A DNA stretch of 64,000 bases, taken from contig CANQGK010000003.1 in the NCBI GenBank assembly GCA_947623175.1, positions 9,667 through 73,666 on the forward strand. Reading direction: 5' to 3'. The notes beneath the pieces are model-generated. The model had not been told where the DNA came from. It saw only the letters and a list, made by a program, of their open reading frames with translations, and ran no database searches. Shown piece after piece: positions 9,919 through 16,960 of the stretch. Within the stretch, counting starts at the first letter, position 1. The number at the start of each line of letters is the position of its first letter. Origin of the DNA: an uncultured Clostridia bacterium (GTDB lineage Bacteria; Bacillota; Clostridia; Oscillospirales; Acutalibacteraceae). The translations under genes were made by a program, and so were the position numbers.

Positions 9919-10701
9919 ATGAAATACCTGACCGCGAAAATCCTACCCAAAATTGATTTTGCGCATACCTTCAGCGCCGATTCTTACCGGCTTAAAATAA
10001 AGCCGAAGCCGAATACGATCGAGATTGCTTATATTTCAAAGGGAAGCTTGCATTTTGATACCGACGGCGAGGATTTGCTTATAAAAAGCGGCAGTATTGT
10101 CCTCAACCCATATCTGCGACCGGTAATTTTCCATTCGGACGAATACCACGAGCATCACACCGTTTCGTTTTTAATGGAATTTTCCCTTTCCGACCTTCCC
10201 GAAAGCCCTTCCTCCGTTCCCCTGCCGAGCGTGATTTCATCGCCCAATGAGCGCTGTTACCGCCTTATCGACGATATTATACGGATCCACACCCTTAACG
10301 CCGACAGCGGACTCAAAACGGCGGGTATGTGCTTGCAGCTGCTTTATGAAATCGGCGCAAACCCCGACCGCCTAGACATAAGCCCTTATATAAAAAAGGT
10401 AAAAAACTACGTCTTTCGGCATCTTAACGAGCCTATCCGCCAGGCGGATATCGCAAACGCTCTCGGCATAACGCCGGAATATTTGTGCGACGTTTTTAAA
10501 AGATGCGAAAACACCACCGTTATGTCTTATGTAAACCGCGTAAAGCTTGACAAAATTAGGGCTGTTATGGAAAAGGAACACCTGCCGCTTTATAAAGCGT
10601 CCGAGCTGTACGGCTACGCCGATCCGAACTACGTAAGCCGCCTCTACAAAAAAATCTTCCACACCAATATTTCCGACCGCATAAAAAATAAAGACTCATA
10701 A
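9919..10701 (+). CDS. AraC family transcriptional regulator
   Basis: 260 aa with a C-terminal AraC HTH (IRQADIANALGITPEYLCDVFKR...ELYGYADPNYVSRLYKK). It is divergent from the GRE operon. Confidence 0.85.
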   Translation: MKYLTAKILPKIDFAHTFSADSYRLKIKPKPNTIEIAYISKGSLHFDTDGEDLLIKSGSIVLNPYLRPVIFHSDEYHEHHTVSFLMEFSLSDLPESPSSVPLPSVISSPNERCYRLIDDIIRIHTLNADSGLKTAGMCLQLLYEIGANPDRLDISPYIKKVKNYVFRHLNEPIRQADIANALGITPEYLCDVFKRCENTTVMSYVNRVKLDKIRAVMEKEHLPLYKASELYGYADPNYVSRLYKKIFHTNISDRIKNKDS

Positions 10702-10703
10702 AC

Positions 10704-10734
10704 GAACCCCCTCGGGATTTATCCGAGGGGGTTC
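10704..10734. terminator. bidirectional hairpin terminator
   Basis: gaaccccctcgg-N7-ccgagggggttc, a 12-bp perfect stem. It separates the AraC gene from the convergent TIR gene. Confidence 0.7.
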
Positions 10735-10757
10735 ATTAAGCACGTATCTTAGAAGAC

Positions 10758-12629
10758 TCAAGAGTCCAGCGTAATCCACAAAGCGGGGCGAACAGCGTCA
10801 TAATTGATGCCGACACCGTTACCATCGAAACTGACCGAACCGGCACAGTCGACAAGAGCAGCAGCGAGCTGAGAATAGCCGGGCGACCGGAGCCACCACC
10901 AGCACGCAGCTTCGCCGCTTGCTGTTTTATAATCTTCTTTCGTATATGCTCCCTGCGACTTTGCATAAGCAGTCGGAGCACATCTGCGTGATTCGTCGTT
11001 TGTGAAATACTTTTCCGCTTCATTAATGCTTAATAAGAATATTTTATCTTTTGTTGCTCTTCCGGAATTTGTATCGTGTTCGGGATTCTTATCTGCACTG
11101 ACGTTTGTCGTCGTTATTTTTTTCTGTTCCTCGGCACTGAAAGCATTATTGAGAAACGTTCCGTTAAGCCATGTTCTGAGAGTGCATTTTTCCCAAGTTA
11201 CGTCAGTAAAAGATTTATTATACGGTTGGCAGTCAAGCGCGTATTTGCTGATTATAAGAGCTTTATTACCTTTTTTCTCAAGAATAAGCCATGCAATTTT
11301 TTCTTTTGCTTTTCCGGTCTCATCTTGATAGTATGAGCCAAAATACAGCGAGTTTTTATTTTGCTCGTTTATTATTTCTTTCATGCGAGCAATCTCTTTA
11401 GCCTTTCGCTCGCTTATGTTGGCAATGTATCCTTCAACTTCTGCTTTCAACTTTTCGTCACCGAAGCGGAGAATTTTTTTATAATTGTCCTTTTCTTCAA
11501 ATGAATTGCAGCAATCGGCTAATAGTTCGCGATAGCTTACACCTATTTCCGCCATCAGCTTGCCAAGGTAAGCTTCGGCGTTTTCGGGATCAAGGTCGAG
11601 CACTTTTTCGCAATATTCATCGGCTTCTTTCCATTTTTTGTCTTCCAAAAACAGAAAGGCGCGTTTCAGCAGCGGTGCGACGTTGGCGTTTCCGCCAATC
11701 ATTGCCGTCTCTTTTTCAACCACCTTCGGCATATCTAAAGGAACGATTTTCTTTATCCCACGAATCAAATCCTGCATAAACCCGAGCTTTGACATATCCT
11801 GTGCTTGCAGATGGGAAAATTCTTCCGGCAAATCATAAGGATCCATATCCTTATAAGCGGGGATAAGCATCTTCTTGGCACCGTTTTTAATAAGGGAGAG
11901 ATAACGGCTCCATTCGTTCTTAACCCAAACGGCATTAAAATACTCGGGTTTTGTACCAAGTGCAACCATTACCTTTGCGGAATTAAGTGCCGCAAATATG
12001 TACGGCTCGTAAGCCGTGCCGAGCTTGTCTTCGAGCGTAATGCGCGAGAAAAACACTTTAAAGCCCTCCTGAGTCAGCTGATGGTAAAGATCGTTTGCCA
12101 AAACCGAATCGGGTGTACGACGACCGTTATTATCGGTTTCTTTATAACAAATAAAAACGTCAAAGGGTTCTTCTTTTTGAGAAATTGCAAGAATGCCTTT
12201 TTGGATTTCGTTGATTGCATTTGCTTCTTTTTCGTAAATGGCTTTTTGATAAGAGTCCGCATTATTCAAAGCGGATTTGTAATTATCGTCATCAAAAATA
12301 GACGTAAACTGCGCCCGGTTGACGGTCGGTACACGTTTCCGTGTTGCGGGATCCTCCACGTATTCTATACCGTAACGGCATAATACCAGCGACCAATACG
12401 CCTCCGCGTCGGTATTATCCTCATTGAGTATCTGCTCATAAATACCCATCGCCTTATCAAATTCGTTATTACGGCGAAAATGGTTCGCCCTGTCGTACAT
12501 ATTTGCGCGCTTTTCGTCGTCAAGCTTGGGAAGTGTTTGTTGAGTTCCGCAGTATTCGCACTCGGCAACCGTTTCGTTATTTTGAATTTCTAATGCGGCA
12601 CCGCACATTTTGCATTTAAAGATTGACAT
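10758..12629 (-). CDS. zinc-ribbon / TPR-like / TIR domain protein with a C-terminal DUF6273-like domain
   Basis: 623 aa. The N-terminus has CKMCG...CEYCG (zinc ribbon). Residues ~155-295 (PFDVFICYKETD...KVFFSRITL...AVWVKNEWSRYL) look like a bacterial TIR_2 domain with the conserved W...E. A helical TPR-like segment follows (EADEYCEKVLDLDPENAEAYLGKL). The C-terminal domain ends WWWLRSPG...RPALWITL. Confidence 0.8.
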   Translation of the reverse strand: MSIFKCKMCGAALEIQNNETVAECEYCGTQQTLPKLDDEKRANMYDRANHFRRNNEFDKAMGIYEQILNEDNTDAEAYWSLVLCRYGIEYVEDPATRKRVPTVNRAQFTSIFDDDNYKSALNNADSYQKAIYEKEANAINEIQKGILAISQKEEPFDVFICYKETDNNGRRTPDSVLANDLYHQLTQEGFKVFFSRITLEDKLGTAYEPYIFAALNSAKVMVALGTKPEYFNAVWVKNEWSRYLSLIKNGAKKMLIPAYKDMDPYDLPEEFSHLQAQDMSKLGFMQDLIRGIKKIVPLDMPKVVEKETAMIGGNANVAPLLKRAFLFLEDKKWKEADEYCEKVLDLDPENAEAYLGKLMAEIGVSYRELLADCCNSFEEKDNYKKILRFGDEKLKAEVEGYIANISERKAKEIARMKEIINEQNKNSLYFGSYYQDETGKAKEKIAWLILEKKGNKALIISKYALDCQPYNKSFTDVTWEKCTLRTWLNGTFLNNAFSAEEQKKITTTNVSADKNPEHDTNSGRATKDKIFLLSINEAEKYFTNDESRRCAPTAYAKSQGAYTKEDYKTASGEAACWWWLRSPGYSQLAAALVDCAGSVSFDGNGVGINYDAVRPALWITLDS

Positions 12630-12635
12630 AATAGT

Positions 12636-13322
12636 TTATACTCCTTTTATCACGTTCCCTAAAAATTCAAAAGCTGTTTTGGCAAAGCCCCCAAACGGTA
12701 ATAACGAAATGACAGAAAAAATGGCTTCCTTGCCGGCACTCATCAAAAATTTTTTTAATCCTTCTTTTGTAAAATCGCCAAGGAACGACTGTATAGCATT
12801 ATCCGATTTAGCTATTGACTTTATATTCTTCTTAGTTTCGGGAGAAAAAATATCCGTTAACGTTTCGTCTTCAATGCATATTTCGGTAAAACAATCAAGC
12901 GGCAATCGAAGCAATTTCCTGTTTAGTGAACATTCATCATACCATCCTTTTTCTTCGATGAAATGACGAGCCTCATTTAAAACATTAATGTCTTGAATTA
13001 ATATTTTGACATAATGATCCGACTCGTCATATTTTGCATTTTTTACCGATTCTGCAAATGAAATTTTCCAATCAAAACCTTTATGTGGATATTTCAGTTC
13101 CTTTCGCTCTTTCAGCGCTCTTATTCTTGACTGTGTTATGCCCAATTGCTTTGATAAAGCGTAATCGTCATACGGTTCTCCTACTTTAATACAATGCTCA
13201 ATGTATTCTGAAAAAAGTAAAACCTCTAAATCATTTTTGGATGTGCTCCCAAAATTTTGGCAGAAGTATAATTCCGATATTTTATCGAAACAAGACTGCT
13301 TTTCTTCATTTGAAAAATCCAT
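12636..13322 (-). CDS. hypothetical protein (possible HTH; hydrophobic/amphipathic C-terminal tail)
   Basis: 228 aa with no family I recognise. YALSKQLGITQSRIRALKERK resembles an HTH. The C-terminus is AIFSVISLLPFGGFAKTAFEFLGNVIKGV. Its stop lies 6 nt before the TIR gene start. Confidence 0.55.
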   Translation of the reverse strand: MDFSNEEKQSCFDKISELYFCQNFGSTSKNDLEVLLFSEYIEHCIKVGEPYDDYALSKQLGITQSRIRALKERKELKYPHKGFDWKISFAESVKNAKYDESDHYVKILIQDINVLNEARHFIEEKGWYDECSLNRKLLRLPLDCFTEICIEDETLTDIFSPETKKNIKSIAKSDNAIQSFLGDFTKEGLKKFLMSAGKEAIFSVISLLPFGGFAKTAFEFLGNVIKGV

Positions 13323-13333
13323 AGTAATCCACC

Positions 13334-14035
13334 TTACTTTAGTAGTCTACACTTCTTATTCCTATCCTCAATCAGTATAATCAACTCGTTCGCCGATTTT
13401 TTGGTATTATCCGCGTTGTTTGCGTTTACGGCGGCGGCAAGCTCGTTGATTTTCAAAGTGATTTGTGCTTCTTGCGCGGCTAATGCCGCATTGCTCATCG
13501 GATCTGAATATCTGACCGCTTCGTATACCTTTTTGCATTCGTTTTTAATCTCTTCGGTTTGTGCTCTCGCAATCAAGCCTTCCGAATCAACGGTTAAAGA
13601 TTTGATGAAAAAAGTCTGCGCTTTTGTTTTATCGTCAACCGCGGACACAACCTCCGCCGCCGCTTTGGCTTTTATAACCGCGATTGCGTTAAAGGCAAGG
13701 ATTATAAGGCAGACGATTATTCCTATCCAATTCGGCAAATTGGGTATTGCCATGCAAATCGCGCCGAATATAACGGTCAGAATAAGCCCCGTATAGCTTA
13801 TTTTAATAAGCGGTAAATTGTAAAACAGCTTTTGTAAATTTTCGGCTTTAAATGCGATAAACGCGCAGTAAAGCTGACCTATAAAGGCAAGGGTGATAAA
13901 TACGTAACCCGACCAAAAAGCCCCGCCGAATTTGGTCAAACCCGCCGATTCGTTCGGAGTTACAAAACAGATAATATTGAAAAGGGCAAAAAGAATTACC
14001 CAAGCGGCAAAGTATGATTTAAACGTCTTTTTCAT
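13334..14035 (-). CDS. membrane protein (about 4 TM helices plus a C-terminal coiled-coil)
   Basis: 233 aa. There are four hydrophobic stretches in the first ~125 aa, then an Ala/Glu/Lys-rich helical tail. It lies 16 nt downstream of the SPFH gene and 11 nt upstream of the next gene. Confidence 0.6.
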   Translation of the reverse strand: MKKTFKSYFAAWVILFALFNIICFVTPNESAGLTKFGGAFWSGYVFITLAFIGQLYCAFIAFKAENLQKLFYNLPLIKISYTGLILTVIFGAICMAIPNLPNWIGIIVCLIILAFNAIAVIKAKAAAEVVSAVDDKTKAQTFFIKSLTVDSEGLIARAQTEEIKNECKKVYEAVRYSDPMSNAALAAQEAQITLKINELAAAVNANNADNTKKSANELIILIEDRNKKCRLLK

Positions 14036-14051: not shown

Positions 14052-15455
14052 TTATAGTTTTTCACCGCACTCGAGGCAGAACTTGGCTCCGCTCGGAAGC
14101 TCCGCACCGCATTTCGCGCATTTCGCAATAAGCGGCGCGCCGCACTCCATACAGAACTTGCCTTTGTTGGTTTTCTTACCGCAAGCGGGGCAAATAATTT
14201 CGTTTTCGTTCGGCAATTCTATTTTGGCGCCGCATTCGAGGCAGAAATTTGAATTTTCCGGAACTTCGCTGTTACAGTTAGGACACTTGATTTTAGCGGT
14301 TTGTTGAGGACTGTCATTCGCGGGCATAGTACCGAAGCCCTTGAACATTTCGCCCATTTGTCCGCTTACGGCGCCGGCGGCAGCCATACCGACGCCGAGA
14401 CCTATCATATCGCCGGCAACTCCGCCGCCCGAGCCGCTTATGTTCATATTACCGATACCTTCCGCATAGGCTTTTTGAACTTCGGCTTGAATTACGTCCT
14501 TTTCGTTATAGCCCTTTGCCCGCATTACTTCCGCTTCCGCAAAGCCGGACATTTTTGCAGCCTGAGCCTCTGTCTGCGCACGGATAAGCTCTCTTTCGGC
14601 TTCTCGGCGGGCTTTTTCGGTAACGGTGGTTTCCTGCTCGAGAATCGCCTGTCGCTCTGCGGCGGTAATACTCGCCTGCGATTCCGCCATTGCCGTCTTT
14701 ATGGTTGTTTCCGCTTCGACCATCTTCTTTTGAAGAGAGATCGTATGTAATTCACGAATCCGCTTAAAGTTGGGATCGCTTTCGGGCAAAACAACGGTAT
14801 TCACATAAAACTCGGGAATTGTAAGTCCGTATTCCTCGAAACCGGGAATAATACTTCTTCTCAAAACGTCGGACAATAAGCCGAGACTTTCATCCACTTC
14901 AAGAATATTTATGTTTTGCGACTTAATACAGCTTGAAAGGTTGGTTTTGACGGCGGTAGAAATCAAAGGACGGAAAGAAGCGGATAAAGATTTGGTAAAA
15001 CCGCCGCTTCTGTCATCCCAAGCAATGCCGTTCATCGTTCCTACGATTTTAACAAGCAGCTTGCGGGGATCCGAAACCATTAGGTTCATTTCACCCGAAG
15101 CGCCTATTTCAAGCGGAACTCCGAAGGTGGGATCGATAAATCTTACCTTGCTGTCGGTACCCCATTTTATAGCCATCTGAACGGTTTTATTTATAAAATA
15201 AACCTCGCAATGAAACGGCGTATCACCGCCGGTAGTGCGATTAAGCGCTTTACCGATTTTCGGTATGTTCTGTGTTTCAAGGGTATATCGCCCCGGCCCG
15301 AACAAATCCAAAGCCTGACCGTTCATAAAAAAGATTGCTTCCTGCGACTCATGAACGATTAACTGCGTGGTCGTATTAAAGTCCTCGCACGGATGTTTCC
15401 ATATAAATGTGCTGTTATCACCCTCGTATTTAATTATCTGTGCTATTTCTGCCAT
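14052..15455 (-). CDS. SPFH/band-7 domain protein with three C-terminal zinc ribbons (COG4260 / B. subtilis YdjI-like)
   Basis: 467 aa. The N-terminus IIKYEGDNSTFIWKHPCEDFNTTTQLIVHESQEAIFFMNGQ is typical of YdjI-type SPFH proteins. It continues with an EA-rich coiled coil, a Gly-rich segment, then CPNC...CLECG, CPACG...CMECG and CAKCG...CLECG. There is a GGAGG RBS. Confidence 0.8.
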   Translation of the reverse strand: MAEIAQIIKYEGDNSTFIWKHPCEDFNTTTQLIVHESQEAIFFMNGQALDLFGPGRYTLETQNIPKIGKALNRTTGGDTPFHCEVYFINKTVQMAIKWGTDSKVRFIDPTFGVPLEIGASGEMNLMVSDPRKLLVKIVGTMNGIAWDDRSGGFTKSLSASFRPLISTAVKTNLSSCIKSQNINILEVDESLGLLSDVLRRSIIPGFEEYGLTIPEFYVNTVVLPESDPNFKRIRELHTISLQKKMVEAETTIKTAMAESQASITAAERQAILEQETTVTEKARREAERELIRAQTEAQAAKMSGFAEAEVMRAKGYNEKDVIQAEVQKAYAEGIGNMNISGSGGGVAGDMIGLGVGMAAAGAVSGQMGEMFKGFGTMPANDSPQQTAKIKCPNCNSEVPENSNFCLECGAKIELPNENEIICPACGKKTNKGKFCMECGAPLIAKCAKCGAELPSGAKFCLECGEKL

Positions 15456-15476
15456 AAATTTACCTCCTCATAACAA

Positions 15477-15502
15477 GTATCAAAAGGTGTACTTTTTGAG
15501 AA
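15477..15502. repeat. hix-like recombination site, left (26 bp: 12-nt half-site, GT core, 12-nt half-site)
   Basis: GTATCAAAAGGT-GT-ACTTTTTGAGAA. Positions 15478-15499 are the perfect reverse complement of 15616-15637. Confidence 0.7.
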
Positions 15503-15625
15503 AATGCGGATTTTGACTTTTTAATGGGGCTTTTTTACAAATTTCTGTTAATAAACGGCGAAATATGTTGATTTTTCACTATTTATATGATATAATCCAA
15601 TTTATATAAGAGCTATCAAAAAGTA
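15490..15625. promoter_or_regulatory. putative invertible promoter segment (inverton), about 136 bp between the two crossover cores
   Basis: It is bounded by inverted 26-bp hix-like sites and sits adjacent to a serine invertase gene. It carries a strong promoter and is the only DNA upstream of the SPFH-TIR operon. Confidence 0.6.
15568..15596 (+). promoter_or_regulatory. near-consensus sigma-A promoter with extended -10, currently pointing away from the operon
   Basis: TTGATT (15568-73), 17-nt spacer ending in TGa, then TATAAT (15591-96). It is on the plus strand, so it reads towards the 3' end of the recombinase gene. Confidence 0.6.
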
Positions 15626-15638
15626 CACCTTTTGATAG
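15613..15638. repeat. hix-like recombination site, right (26 bp)
   Basis: CTATCAAAAAGT-AC-ACCTTTTGATAG. It is embedded in a 34-nt palindrome (15609-15642, 13-bp arms) that overlaps the recombinase stop codon. Confidence 0.7.
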
Positions 15639-15640
15639 CT

Positions 15641-16381
<741 letters not shown>

Positions 16382-16423: not shown

Positions 16424-16960
16424 TCAATAATTTTCCGCGCTGATTTCAAAAAAGCTTTGCGGATGATTGCAGACGGGGCAAACCTCCGGCGCGGCGGTGC
16501 CTACGATGATATGACCGCAGTTGCGGCATTCCCAAATTTTAACCTCACTGCGGGCAAAAACCTGAGCCGTTTCGACGTTTTTCAAAAGGGCGCGGTAACG
16601 CTCCTCATGATGCTTCTCTATAGCCGCCACCATGCGGAAACGGCGGGCAAGCTCGGGGAAGCCCTCCTCCTCGGCGGTCTTGGCAAAGCCCTCGTACATA
16701 TCGGTCCACTCGTAATTTTCCCCGTCAGCCGCGGCGGCTAAATTTTCGGCGGTAGAGCCTATGCCCTCAAGCTCCTTAAACCAAAGCTTGGCATGCTCTT
16801 TTTCGTTGTCGGCGGTCTTTTGGAAAAGCGCCGCGATCTGCTCAAAGCCATCTTTTTTGGCTTTTGACGCAAAATAGGTGTACTTGTTGCGCGCCTGCGA
16901 TTCGCCCGCGAAGGCGGCTTCAAGGTTCTTTTCGGTTTGTGTTCCGGAATACTTACTCAT
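16424..16960 (-). CDS. rbr: rubrerythrin
   Basis: 178 aa with a ferritin-like diiron domain ([14 protein letters not shown]...EKEHAKLW...EKHHEERY) and a C-terminal rubredoxin-like CRNCG...CPVCNHP. Confidence 0.92.

What the first reader, a model, noticed from the sequence alone, without database searches (positions are those of the whole stretch)
15477..15638. Hin-type invertible promoter (inverton) controlling the SPFH-TIR operon, captured in the OFF orientation
Seen in the sequence:

- The intergenic DNA between the operon start (15455) and the serine recombinase stop (15641) contains two 26-bp sites in inverted orientation: GTATCAAAAGGT-GT-ACTTTTTGAGAA (15477-15502) and CTATCAAAAAGT-AC-ACCTTTTGATAG (15613-15638).
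- Of these, 22 nt are perfectly complementary (15478-15499 versus 15616-15637).
- Each site is itself a dyad around a non-palindromic 2-bp core (GT/AC), which is the architecture needed for directional serine-recombinase inversion.
- The ~136-bp segment between the cores carries TTGATT, a 17-nt spacer, then TGaTATAAT on the plus strand (15568-15596). This promoter fires away from the operon and antisense into the recombinase gene.
- Only about 20 nt, including the RBS, lie between the left site and the operon start codon. The operon therefore has no fixed promoter of its own.

Established knowledge (from memory): the half-sites resemble the Hin hix consensus half-site TTATCAAAAACC at 9 of 12 positions.

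Inference: inversion would place the promoter on the minus strand with a 5' UTR of about 55-60 nt, switching the operon ON. That would make a candidate immune or abortive-infection module phase-variable, which would limit its fitness cost.
Basis: partly seen in the sequence, partly recalled or inferred. Interest (0 to 1): 0.88.

Follow-up and report, generated by a model that had tools for sequence, protein, structure and literature searches.

The report
Serine-recombinase promoter switch before SPFH-TIR operon
A 136-bp DNA segment carrying a promoter sits between a small serine recombinase gene and a four-gene SPFH/TIR operon and is almost certainly a flip-flop genetic switch, here in the OFF position; it belongs to a very large, apparently undescribed family of such switches in gut Clostridia.

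Summary
Flipping was not seen at this exact locus: all five contigs that cover it have the window's orientation. The family evidence is strong. At least 35 metagenome loci, and more than 8000 homologous recombinases, share the layout recombinase – site – 93-190 bp – site – cargo ORF. The central dinucleotides are the most variable site positions, yet they are complementary between partner sites in 32 of 32 pairs. Site spacing is phased at 10.5 bp. At a locus with a 76%-identical recombinase, a nearly identical site and an SPFH cargo, one metagenome contig is exactly the predicted inversion product of nine others. A hairpin at the proximal site exists only in the OFF state. "Hin-type" holds for site architecture and mechanism, not protein subfamily (closest to Sin/Bin3). 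The cargo matches no known defence system, so its immune role is unproven. The window's recombinase carries Trp at an otherwise invariant Arg. Verdict: real inverton, a new variant of a known kind.

The parts
15641..16249 (-). Small serine recombinase of 202 aa, the presumed invertase. It lies outside the invertible segment and is co-directional with the operon. The longer ORF to 16276 is probably not used.
   Evidence: Pfam Resolvase 3.8e-28. Aligns with gamma-delta resolvase over residues 4-194, which includes the C-terminal DNA-binding domain, and its best PDB match is Sin/Bin3 at 5e-30. Called as 202 aa in an independent assembly. A GGAGGTG ribosome-binding site precedes the ATG at 16249.
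15863..15865 (-). Codon 129 of the recombinase. It encodes Trp where every family homologue has Arg. This is the E-helix position equivalent to Tn3 resolvase R119.
   Evidence: Arg in 32 of 32 homologues. The ENA strain has Arg. A second NCBI allele also has Trp. Tn3 R119A/K mutants are active but defective in synapsis (PMC2794168).
15613..15638 (.). Recombinase-proximal recombination site: CTATCAAAAAGT-AC-ACCTTTTGATAG. The crossover dinucleotide is at 15625-15626.
   Evidence: The family consensus is TATCAAAARGT-NN-ACYTTTTGATA.
15609..15642 (.). Extended 16-bp-arm palindrome around the proximal site (AGAGC...GCTCT). It is built from a fixed outer flank and an invertible inner flank, so it exists only in the assembled (OFF) state. 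It looks like a terminator in both directions.
   Evidence: Flagged by the terminator scan on the + strand. Hairpin energy is -19.4 kcal/mol as assembled and -5.7 after in-silico flipping. The same asymmetry holds in 25 of 31 family loci.
15491..15624 (.). Invertible segment between the two crossover dinucleotides. The core-to-core distance is 136 bp, about 13.0 helical turns.
   Evidence: Helical phasing across the family has R = 0.71 at 10.5 bp.
15568..15596 (+). Sigma-70-type promoter TTGATT-17-TGaTATAAT inside the segment. As assembled it fires toward the recombinase 3' end, away from the operon. After inversion it would fire into the operon with a 5' UTR of about 57 nt.
   Evidence: A promoter at the equivalent position and orientation is found in 27 of 32 family loci.
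15477..15502 (.). Distal recombination site: GTATCAAAAGGT-GT-ACTTTTTGAGAA. The crossover dinucleotide is at 15489-15490.
15456..15476 (-). 21-nt leader containing the ribosome-binding site (GGAGG) of the first operon gene. There is no room for a fixed promoter.
   Evidence: In the family, the cargo ORF starts 0-75 nt after the distal site.
14052..15455 (-). Operon gene 1: SPFH/Band-7 protein with four C-terminal zinc ribbons (467 aa).
   Evidence: Pfam Band_7_1 1.6e-37, plus DZR and Zn_Ribbon_1. More than 550 relatives in gut Clostridia genomes.
13334..14035 (-). Operon gene 2: 233-aa protein with four predicted transmembrane segments and a coiled-coil tail. It is almost always linked to the SPFH gene.
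   Evidence: Hydropathy. Present next to the SPFH gene in about 70 of 80 loci.
12636..13322 (-). Operon gene 3: 228-aa soluble protein with no family match. It is rare in homologous modules.
   Evidence: Found in only 1-3 of 80 loci.
10758..12629 (-). Operon gene 4: 623-aa protein with an N-terminal zinc ribbon, TPR repeats, a TIR domain, more TPR repeats and DUF6273.
   Evidence: Pfam TIR_2 6.1e-12, DUF6273 2.9e-32 and TPR families. The TIR-containing part is linked to SPFH genes in 53 of 80 loci.
10700..10735 (-). Strong intrinsic terminator that ends the operon: GAACCCCCTCGG...CCGAGGGGGTTC followed by a T-rich tail. Coordinates are approximate.
   Evidence: Sequence printed. The gene gaps of 16, 11 and 6 nt indicate a single transcription unit.

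Best explanation
This is a site-specific DNA inversion switch, an inverton.

**Inferred mechanism.** The adjacent 202-aa serine recombinase binds as dimers to the two 26-bp dyad sites and synapses them across a very short loop of 136 bp, about 13 helical turns. It makes 2-bp staggered cuts at the central GT/AC dinucleotides, rotates the subunits and religates. That inverts 15491-15624.

**The two states.** The segment carries a strong promoter. As assembled, the promoter points at the recombinase 3' end. There it meets a 16-bp hairpin that exists only in this orientation, and the same hairpin lies in the path of read-through from the recombinase gene. The operon is therefore OFF. After inversion the hairpin is dismantled and the promoter transcribes the operon: SPFH, a 4-TM protein, a 228-aa protein and the TIR/DUF6273 protein. 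The leader would be about 57 nt and runs through the distal site.

**Shown versus inferred.**

- Shown here: the anatomy, the family-wide conservation, the covariation, the helical phasing, and natural inversion of homologous switches.
- Inferred: that this particular copy flips, that the hairpin terminates transcription, and what the operon does.
For: - **Anatomy and rarity.**
- **Conserved architecture.** A 56-74%-identical recombinase has its 3' end about 45-100 nt from a site in 35 metagenome loci, and 29 of them have a second site 116-190 bp further on. The cargo ORF starts 0-75 nt after the distal site.
- **Core covariation.** Site positions 12-13 are the most variable columns, with six core types. 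Partner sites still show 0 of 64 mismatches there, against 83 of 704 at other positions (P = 3e-4).
- **Helical phasing.** Core-to-core distances give R = 0.71 at 10.5-10.6 bp with phase about 0. Rayleigh p is about 5e-8, and 0 of 5000 jittered nulls reach this value.
- **Natural inversion, SPFH locus.** The P0033 locus has a 76%-identical recombinase, the site TATCAAAAGGT-GT-ACCTTTTGATA and an SPFH/zinc-ribbon cargo. Nine contigs have one orientation. L209 has the other and equals the in-silico inversion of L206 at the cores over 262 nt, with the half-sites swapped.
- **Natural inversion, orphan locus.** The L113-type and L100-type contigs differ only in segment orientation. The promoter faces away from or toward a signal-peptide gene.
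- **OFF-specific hairpin.** The proximal palindrome is extended by 4.6 bp as assembled and 0.7 bp when flipped. L038, the one locus assembled ON, shows the reverse.
- **Recurrence with this cargo.** Other SPFH modules also carry such a switch: L134, L201, L205 and the P0033 locus.
Against: - No contig shows the flipped state at this exact locus. The window and L001-L004 all have the same orientation.
- The window's recombinase has Trp at an otherwise invariant Arg. This may slow or cripple switching in this strain.
- 27 of 32 family loci are assembled with the promoter pointing away from the cargo. This skew has no proven explanation.
- The hairpin's U-tracts are modest.
- A weak operon-sense promoter-like match, TTGATA-16-GATTAT at 15619-15592, could make the OFF state leaky.
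- No transcript data are available.
Confidence: 0.85

Rival explanations
1. The switch is real, but the assembled orientation is not OFF for the operon. The operon is transcribed by read-through from the co-directional recombinase promoter. The invertible promoter acts mainly as a convergent or antisense regulator of that transcript or of the recombinase.
For: - The recombinase and the cargo are co-directional in every locus examined.
- 27 of 32 loci are assembled with the promoter facing the recombinase, which is odd for a neutral two-state switch.
- The tails of the OFF-state hairpin are only moderately U-rich.
Against: - In the orphan L113/L100 group a strong bidirectional terminator precedes the switch, so only the invertible promoter can drive the cargo. 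Both states occur there.
- The OFF-specific extended hairpin lies exactly between the recombinase and the cargo.
- The promoters are near consensus and, once flipped, face a cargo ribosome-binding site 40-80 nt away.
Confidence: 0.07
2. This is a relic or locked switch. The sites are intact, but the R129W substitution has disabled the recombinase in this strain, so the operon is permanently silent or only leaky unless another recombinase acts in trans.
For: - Arg is invariant in 32 of 32 homologues, and the window has Trp.
- The conspecific ENA strain has Arg.
- Only one orientation is seen at this locus.
Against: - Tn3 resolvase R119A and R119K mutants still recombine in vivo (PMC2794168).
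- The Trp allele occurs in two different NCBI alleles, so it persists.
- Both sites remain perfect, with 22 of 22 nt complementary.
Confidence: 0.06
3. The repeats are not a recombination substrate. They are a transcription terminator plus a chance or duplicated repeat, a long-range RNA stem in a recombinase-operon transcript, or the terminal inverted repeats of a MITE. The recombinase would then be an ordinary resolvase of a mobile element.
For: - The proximal site scores as a terminator.
- A read-through RNA would pair the two sites.
- Related recombinase loci sit next to MobA/MobL relaxases.
- The protein is closest to the Sin/Bin3 resolvases.
Against: - Exact natural inversion occurs at the cores in homologous loci.
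- Each site is itself a dyad, which an RNA stem does not need.
- The 10.5-bp phasing of site spacing is a property of DNA, not RNA.
- The sites lie downstream of the gene in inverted orientation, unlike res sites.
- There is no target-site duplication.
Confidence: 0.02

Closest known systems
Hin/Gin/Cin/Pin (Din) DNA invertases and their hix/gix/cix sites
   Same: - Small serine recombinase.
- 26-bp site made of two 12-bp inverted half-sites around a 2-bp crossover core.
- The half-site TATCAAAAA is shared with the right half of hix (9 of 12).
- Inversion of a promoter (Hin) switches downstream genes.
- As with Gin, Cin and Pin, the recombinase gene lies outside the segment.
   Different: - The protein is not in the Din subfamily: Gin scores 2e-14 against 5e-30 for Sin/Bin3.
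- The bases next to the core are GT/AC rather than CC/GG, and the core is variable rather than AA or GA.
- The segment is 93-190 bp and helically phased, against 1-4 kb.
- The host is a Clostridium-class Firmicute, where Fis is not expected (from general knowledge; not tested).
- An orientation-specific hairpin is part of the design.
Mpi, the master serine DNA invertase of Bacteroides fragilis, and its capsule-promoter invertons
   Same: - Serine recombinase of about 200 aa that flips short promoter-containing segments in front of surface-structure operons.
- One enzyme appears to serve several loci. Orphan switches exist here too, and a recombinase-linked switch is 80% identical to an orphan one.
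- The NCBIfam Mpi model aligns end to end with the window's recombinase.
   Different: - The score is 42.9 bits against a family cutoff of 272, so this is not an Mpi-family member.
- The repeat motif and the phylum differ.
- Here the typical arrangement is one recombinase gene directly abutting its switch.
Clostridioides difficile RecV switches (cwpV, flgB)
   Same: - Phase-variable inversion switches in Clostridia.
- The orientation-dependent formation of a terminator-like RNA structure resembles the cwpV mechanism (from general knowledge; flgB context in PMC7446863).
   Different: - RecV is a tyrosine recombinase.
- In those switches the promoter is outside the invertible segment; here it is inside.
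Sin / Bin3 / beta-type small serine resolvases of Firmicutes plasmids and transposons
   Same: The closest proteins with solved structures. Some family members sit next to relaxase genes.
   Different: Resolvases act on directly repeated res sites with accessory sub-sites upstream of their gene and delete DNA. Here two simple dyad sites lie in inverted orientation downstream of the gene and invert it.

Membership tests
Din (Hin/Gin/Cin/Pin) DNA invertases | Small serine recombinase with an N-terminal catalytic domain and a C-terminal helix-turn-helix domain. | tested here: met
   Pfam Resolvase 3.8e-28. Full-length alignment to gamma-delta and Tn3 resolvases over residues 3-200. The YIRVSS catalytic-serine motif is present.
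Din (Hin/Gin/Cin/Pin) DNA invertases | 26-bp crossover site: two inverted 12-bp half-sites around a 2-bp core that must be identical in the two partner sites. | tested here: met
   Partner cores are complementary in 32 of 32 site pairs.
Din (Hin/Gin/Cin/Pin) DNA invertases | Site matches the dix consensus TTC---AAACC-AA-GGTTT---GAA. | tested here: not met
   The half-site matches the right half of hix at 9 of 12 positions. The invariant bases next to the core are GT/AC rather than CC/GG, and the core is GT, AC, CT, TT, AT or AG rather than AA or GA.
Din (Hin/Gin/Cin/Pin) DNA invertases | The protein groups with Din invertases by sequence. | tested here: not met
   PDB search: Sin/Bin3 5e-30, gamma-delta/Tn3 about 1e-20, Gin 2e-14. 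No Hin-family NCBIfam hit.
Din (Hin/Gin/Cin/Pin) DNA invertases | Fis-bound recombinational enhancer in cis. | not testable with these tools
   No enhancer model is available. Fis is not expected in Clostridia (general knowledge). The short, phased loop suggests a different way of assembling the synapse.
Mpi-family master DNA invertase | Score above the NCBIfam NF009949 cutoff. | tested here: not met
   42.9 bits against a cutoff of 272, although the alignment covers 2-192 of 203 model positions.
Mpi-family master DNA invertase | One recombinase flips several distant promoter segments. | tested here: inconclusive
   Orphan switches without a nearby recombinase exist (L113, L052, L027), and L085 resembles L113 at 80% identity. 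No second site pair occurs in this 64-kb window.
Inverton / invertible promoter (operational definition as used by PhaseFinder) | Inverted repeats flank a short segment that contains a promoter next to a gene start. | tested here: met
Inverton / invertible promoter (operational definition as used by PhaseFinder) | An invertase gene lies nearby. | tested here: met
   The recombinase stop codon is 2 nt from the proximal site.
Inverton / invertible promoter (operational definition as used by PhaseFinder) | Both orientations are observed in sequence data. | tested here: inconclusive
   Not seen at this locus: five contigs, one orientation. Seen at homologous loci, L206 versus L209 and L113 versus L100.
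Known anti-phage defence systems (PADLOC; Thoeris) | Operon proteins match models of defence-system components. | tested here: not met
   No PADLOC hit for any of the four proteins. Thoeris type III ThcB4 scores 26 bits against a cutoff of 220. Only the generic Pfam TIR_2 domain is found.

The most novel reading that the evidence does not exclude
Gut Clostridia carry a very large, so far uncharacterised family of Sin/Bin-like serine invertases. Each abuts an ultrashort, helically phased cassette that toggles a promoter and a terminator hairpin at the same time. This family has repeatedly captured a conserved SPFH – 4-TM – TIR module, at least four times: the window, L134, L201/L205 and the P0033 mobile element. 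The most novel reading is that this module is a costly TIR-based immune or abortive-infection system, and that phase variation keeps it silent in most cells as a bet-hedging strategy.
Probability: 0.3. Interest if true: 0.75.

Novelty: new variant of a known kind. Interest (0 to 1): 0.6.

Why it matters
Invertible promoters are a classic bet-hedging device, but well-characterised serine-recombinase examples are few: Hin, and Mpi in Bacteroides. This locus opens onto a family with thousands of members in gut Clostridia. The family has clear and testable design rules:

- an invariant GT-NN-AC centre with a free but partner-matched crossover dinucleotide;
- sites spaced by whole helical turns across loops of only 9-18 turns;
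- a hairpin that exists in one orientation only.

These rules could improve inverton prediction from assemblies without reads, and they offer compact genetic switches for Firmicutes.

Biologically, the switch puts a widespread, uncharacterised SPFH–membrane–TIR module under stochastic ON/OFF control. That suggests the module is costly when expressed, and it gives a handle (locked-ON and locked-OFF constructs) for finding out what it does.

Tried and rejected
- **Possible third site.** The match at 16873-16889 lies inside the rubrerythrin gene and fails the motif search. I treated it as chance.
- **Exact-protein look-ups for the recombinase.** The 202-aa and 211-aa forms, P0001 and P0122, returned nothing. 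The NCBI contigs that carry it could not be fetched, so the second Trp-allele genome was not inspected.
- **The shared contig break.** Three ENA assemblies break at the same 55-nt vertex, 15543-15597. I modelled what a mixture of ON and OFF reads at these repeats would do to a k=55 graph. It predicts breaks at 15478-15532 and 15583-15637 instead, so the break is not evidence of flipping. No second copy of the interior exists in any fetched locus. The break remains unexplained.
- **L026 versus L095 as an ON/OFF pair.** Beyond the site, L026 continues into the reverse complement of another recombinase 3' end. This is a different rearrangement or a misassembly, not a simple flip.
- **L020/L072/L091/L030 flank swaps.** The contigs diverge about 38 nt beyond the site, so this is not a crossover at the site.
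- **"Split" SPFH genes in L209 and L215.** I considered that the cargo was disrupted in the ON contig. The splits are N-runs from scaffolding.
- **Terminator upstream of the invertible promoter.** Nothing convincing came out of the folds.
- **Literature.** The site motif is not printed in any relevant paper or in the held supplements of the hCom2 inverton survey.
Full report
**1. The observation**

- The distal site GTATCAAAAGGT-GT-ACTTTTTGAGAA is at 15477-15502. The proximal site CTATCAAAAAGT-AC-ACCTTTTGATAG is at 15613-15638.
- 22 nt of the two sites are perfectly complementary, with 116 nt between the arms.
- The promoter TTGATT-17-TGaTATAAT lies on the + strand at 15568-15596.
- The first operon gene starts at 15455, 21 nt beyond the distal site, preceded by GGAGG.
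- The recombinase stop codon is 2 nt beyond the proximal site.
- The site motif, allowing up to 3 mismatches, occurs nowhere else in the 64-kb window. The expected count is 0.06, and 0 of 100 shuffles match the observed count.

**2. The genes**

- *Recombinase.* The gene at 15641-16249 (minus strand) encodes a 202-aa small serine recombinase (Pfam Resolvase 3.8e-28). It aligns end to end with the gamma-delta and Tn3 resolvases, and its closest solved relative is Sin/Bin3.
- *Operon.* The operon is tight, with gaps of 16, 11 and 6 nt, and it ends in a strong terminator. It encodes:
  - an SPFH protein with four zinc ribbons;
  - a 233-aa protein with four predicted transmembrane segments;
  - a 228-aa soluble protein;
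  - a protein with a zinc ribbon, TPR repeats, a TIR domain and DUF6273.
- *Defence models.* None of the four proteins matches a PADLOC defence model. The only NCBIfam echo is a sub-threshold Thoeris ThcB4 hit.

**3. Is it a recombination switch? Evidence from related sequences**

- In 35 of these contigs a 56-74%-identical recombinase ends about 45-100 nt from a site. In 29 of them a second site follows 116-190 bp later.
- In nearly all, a co-directional ORF begins 0-75 nt after the distal site.
- The cargo genes are unrelated to one another. Most are secreted or surface proteins: vWA/pilin-like, BspA leucine-rich repeats, SLH, a capsule PGA_cap protein and a TadZ-like protein. A MerR regulator also appears.
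- The recombinase family is very large. The protein search returned 8000 proteins at E ≤ 1e-40, which is its candidate cap.

*Two statistical signatures of recombination.*

- **Core covariation.** The central dinucleotide is the most variable part of the site across loci (GT, AC, AT, CT, TT, AG). Between the two partner sites of a locus it is never mismatched: 0 of 64 positions, against 83 of 704 (11.8%) at other positions, P = 3e-4. The flanking GT…AC bases are invariant. This is what 2-bp staggered cleavage and religation by a serine recombinase requires.
- **Helical phasing.** The core-to-core distance in 33 loci is phased at 10.5-10.6 bp with phase about 0 (R = 0.71, Rayleigh p about 5e-8, 0 of 5000 jittered nulls reach this), even though the interior sequences are unrelated. 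The sites therefore lie on the same face of the helix, as expected if they must synapse across a loop of only 9-18 turns. The window's 136 bp is 12.95 turns. One caveat is that the loci are not phylogenetically independent, although their interiors share no detectable similarity.

*Direct evidence of flipping in nature.*

- **P0033 locus.** The recombinase is 76% identical to the window's, the proximal site differs from the window's at one position, and the cargo is a 390-aa SPFH/zinc-ribbon protein. Nine contigs from different samples have one orientation and L209 has the other. Inverting L206 in silico between the two cores reproduces L209 exactly over 262 nt, and the half-sites are exchanged at the core.
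- **Orphan switch.** Five contigs (L113 type) and four contigs (L100 type) have collinear flanks and an inverted interior. The promoter TTGCAT-17-TATCAT faces a bidirectional terminator in one state. In the other it faces a signal-peptide gene whose ribosome-binding site and ATG lie about 38 nt beyond the site.

**4. State and logic of the switch**

- *Orientation tally.* In 27 of 32 loci the best promoter in the segment faces the recombinase, at a conserved position. Only L038 faces its cargo, and four are ties. The window is in this majority state, which is OFF.
- *OFF-specific hairpin.* In the majority state the palindrome of the proximal site is extended by pairing between the fixed outer flank and the invertible inner flank.

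| Measure | As assembled | After in-silico flipping |
|---|---|---|
| Proximal-site extension, mean | 4.6 bp | 0.7 bp |
| Distal-site extension, mean | 1.6 bp | 0.7 bp |
| Proximal hairpin energy, mean | -17 kcal/mol | -8 kcal/mol |
| Window's proximal hairpin energy | -19.4 kcal/mol | -5.7 kcal/mol |

  - Twenty-five loci show a longer proximal extension as assembled, two show a shorter one and four are equal. L038, the locus assembled ON, shows the reverse.
  - In the window this extension is AGAGC…GCTCT at 15609-15642.
  - The flanks are A-rich upstream and T-rich downstream, so the hairpin looks like a terminator in both directions.
- *Inference.* In OFF the hairpin stops both the outward-firing promoter and read-through from the recombinase gene. 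Flipping removes it and aims the promoter at the cargo. This step is inferred, not shown.
- *The skew.* The strong bias toward OFF in assemblies fits an ON state that is rare or costly, but it is not explained by any data here.

**5. How the switch relates to the SPFH module**

- The SPFH gene has more than 550 relatives in genomes of gut Clostridia.
- Of the 80 best loci, about 70 keep the 233-aa membrane protein next to it and 53 keep the TIR-containing protein.
- Only L134, L205 and L201 have a site pair upstream. Their half-sites have diverged, and their cores are GT/AC, AG/CT and GT/AC.
- The closest relatives, L126 and L127 (93% and 92% identical), instead have a fixed promoter and a conserved palindrome upstream.
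- The switch is therefore an occasional add-on to a widespread module, acquired more than once. In the P0033 locus it sits next to a MobA/MobL relaxase.

**6. This particular copy**

- The window and four ENA contigs that reach into the switch all show the OFF orientation.
- The window's recombinase carries Trp129 where 32 of 32 homologues have Arg, and the conspecific ENA strain also has Arg. A second NCBI allele also carries Trp.
- The position corresponds to Tn3 resolvase R119: the spacing E128–W129…R135 matches E118–R119…R125. R119A and R119K mutants recombine in vivo, but they cleave about 30-fold more slowly and form unstable synapses (PMC2794168).
- This copy may therefore switch slowly, but I do not expect it to be dead.

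**7. Comparison with known systems**

- *Mechanism.* It works like Hin or Mpi: a serine recombinase inverts a promoter.
- *Membership.* It is not a Din-family member. The protein is closer to Sin/Bin3, and the core and its neighbouring bases differ from the Din consensus. It is not an Mpi-family member either, at 43 bits against a cutoff of 272.
- *Literature.* Large inverton surveys list Clostridia invertons only generically (PMC11892184, PMC11602134). No searchable paper prints this site motif.
- *Phage susceptibility.* Phase-variable control is known in Bacteroides through capsule and fimbrial switches (PMC13139388). I found no report of an SPFH–TIR module under such control.

**8. Verdict**

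Three qualifications apply:

- "Hin-type" is a mechanistic analogy, not family membership.
- Flipping at this exact locus is inferred from homologues.
- The immune role of the cargo is unproven.

I rate it a new variant of a known kind, with interest 0.6. Most of the interest lies in the size and the clear design rules of the family, and in the recurrent capture of an uncharacterised TIR module.

Noticed in passing
window 15863-15865 (recombinase codon 129): The codon encodes Trp where 32 of 32 family homologues, Hin and the conspecific ENA strain have Arg. The position is equivalent to Tn3 resolvase R119. The same Trp occurs in a second NCBI allele with a mosaic N-terminus (P0122).
   Followed up: yes
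window 15543-15597; L001-L004: Three independent ENA SPAdes assemblies break their contigs at the same 55-nt vertex, which coincides with the promoter module. The operon-side and recombinase-side contigs overlap by exactly k=55. A simple ON/OFF mixture at the repeats does not predict this vertex. A second copy of the promoter module elsewhere in the genome is one possible cause.
   Followed up: partly
L026 7188-7342 versus L095 61-215: Beyond its proximal site, L026 continues into the reverse complement of the 3' end of another recombinase gene (74% identical). This could be a large inversion between the sites of two different switches, or an assembly chimera.
   Followed up: no
L206-L223 (P0033 and P0037 loci): In two well-sampled family members, a MobA/MobL relaxase gene lies immediately upstream of the recombinase-switch-cargo unit. 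These switch modules therefore travel on mobilisable elements.
   Followed up: no
L126 5880-5990; L127 5940-5990: The closest SPFH operons without a switch have a fixed promoter (TTGTAA-17-TGcTATGAT). It is followed by a conserved palindrome (AGCAACATAATATGGAATATGTTGCT) just before the ribosome-binding site, which could be an operator for conventional regulation of the same module.
   Followed up: no
window 12636-13322: The 228-aa third gene of the operon is present in only 1-3 of the 80 homologous SPFH modules. It therefore looks like an insertion into a conserved three-gene core (SPFH, 4-TM protein, TIR). The DUF6273 tail of the TIR protein is also variable (17 of 80).
   Followed up: partly
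window 15619-15592 (minus strand): A weak operon-sense promoter-like match, TTGATA-16-GATTAT, uses the proximal half-site as its -35 element. Similar TTGATA-based matches recur in several family loci. It could give leaky expression in the OFF state.
   Followed up: no
L085 61-249 versus L113 2349-2538: A recombinase-linked switch and an orphan switch share 80% identity across both sites and the interior. This suggests that switch cassettes duplicate to new loci and are served in trans by one recombinase.
   Followed up: partly
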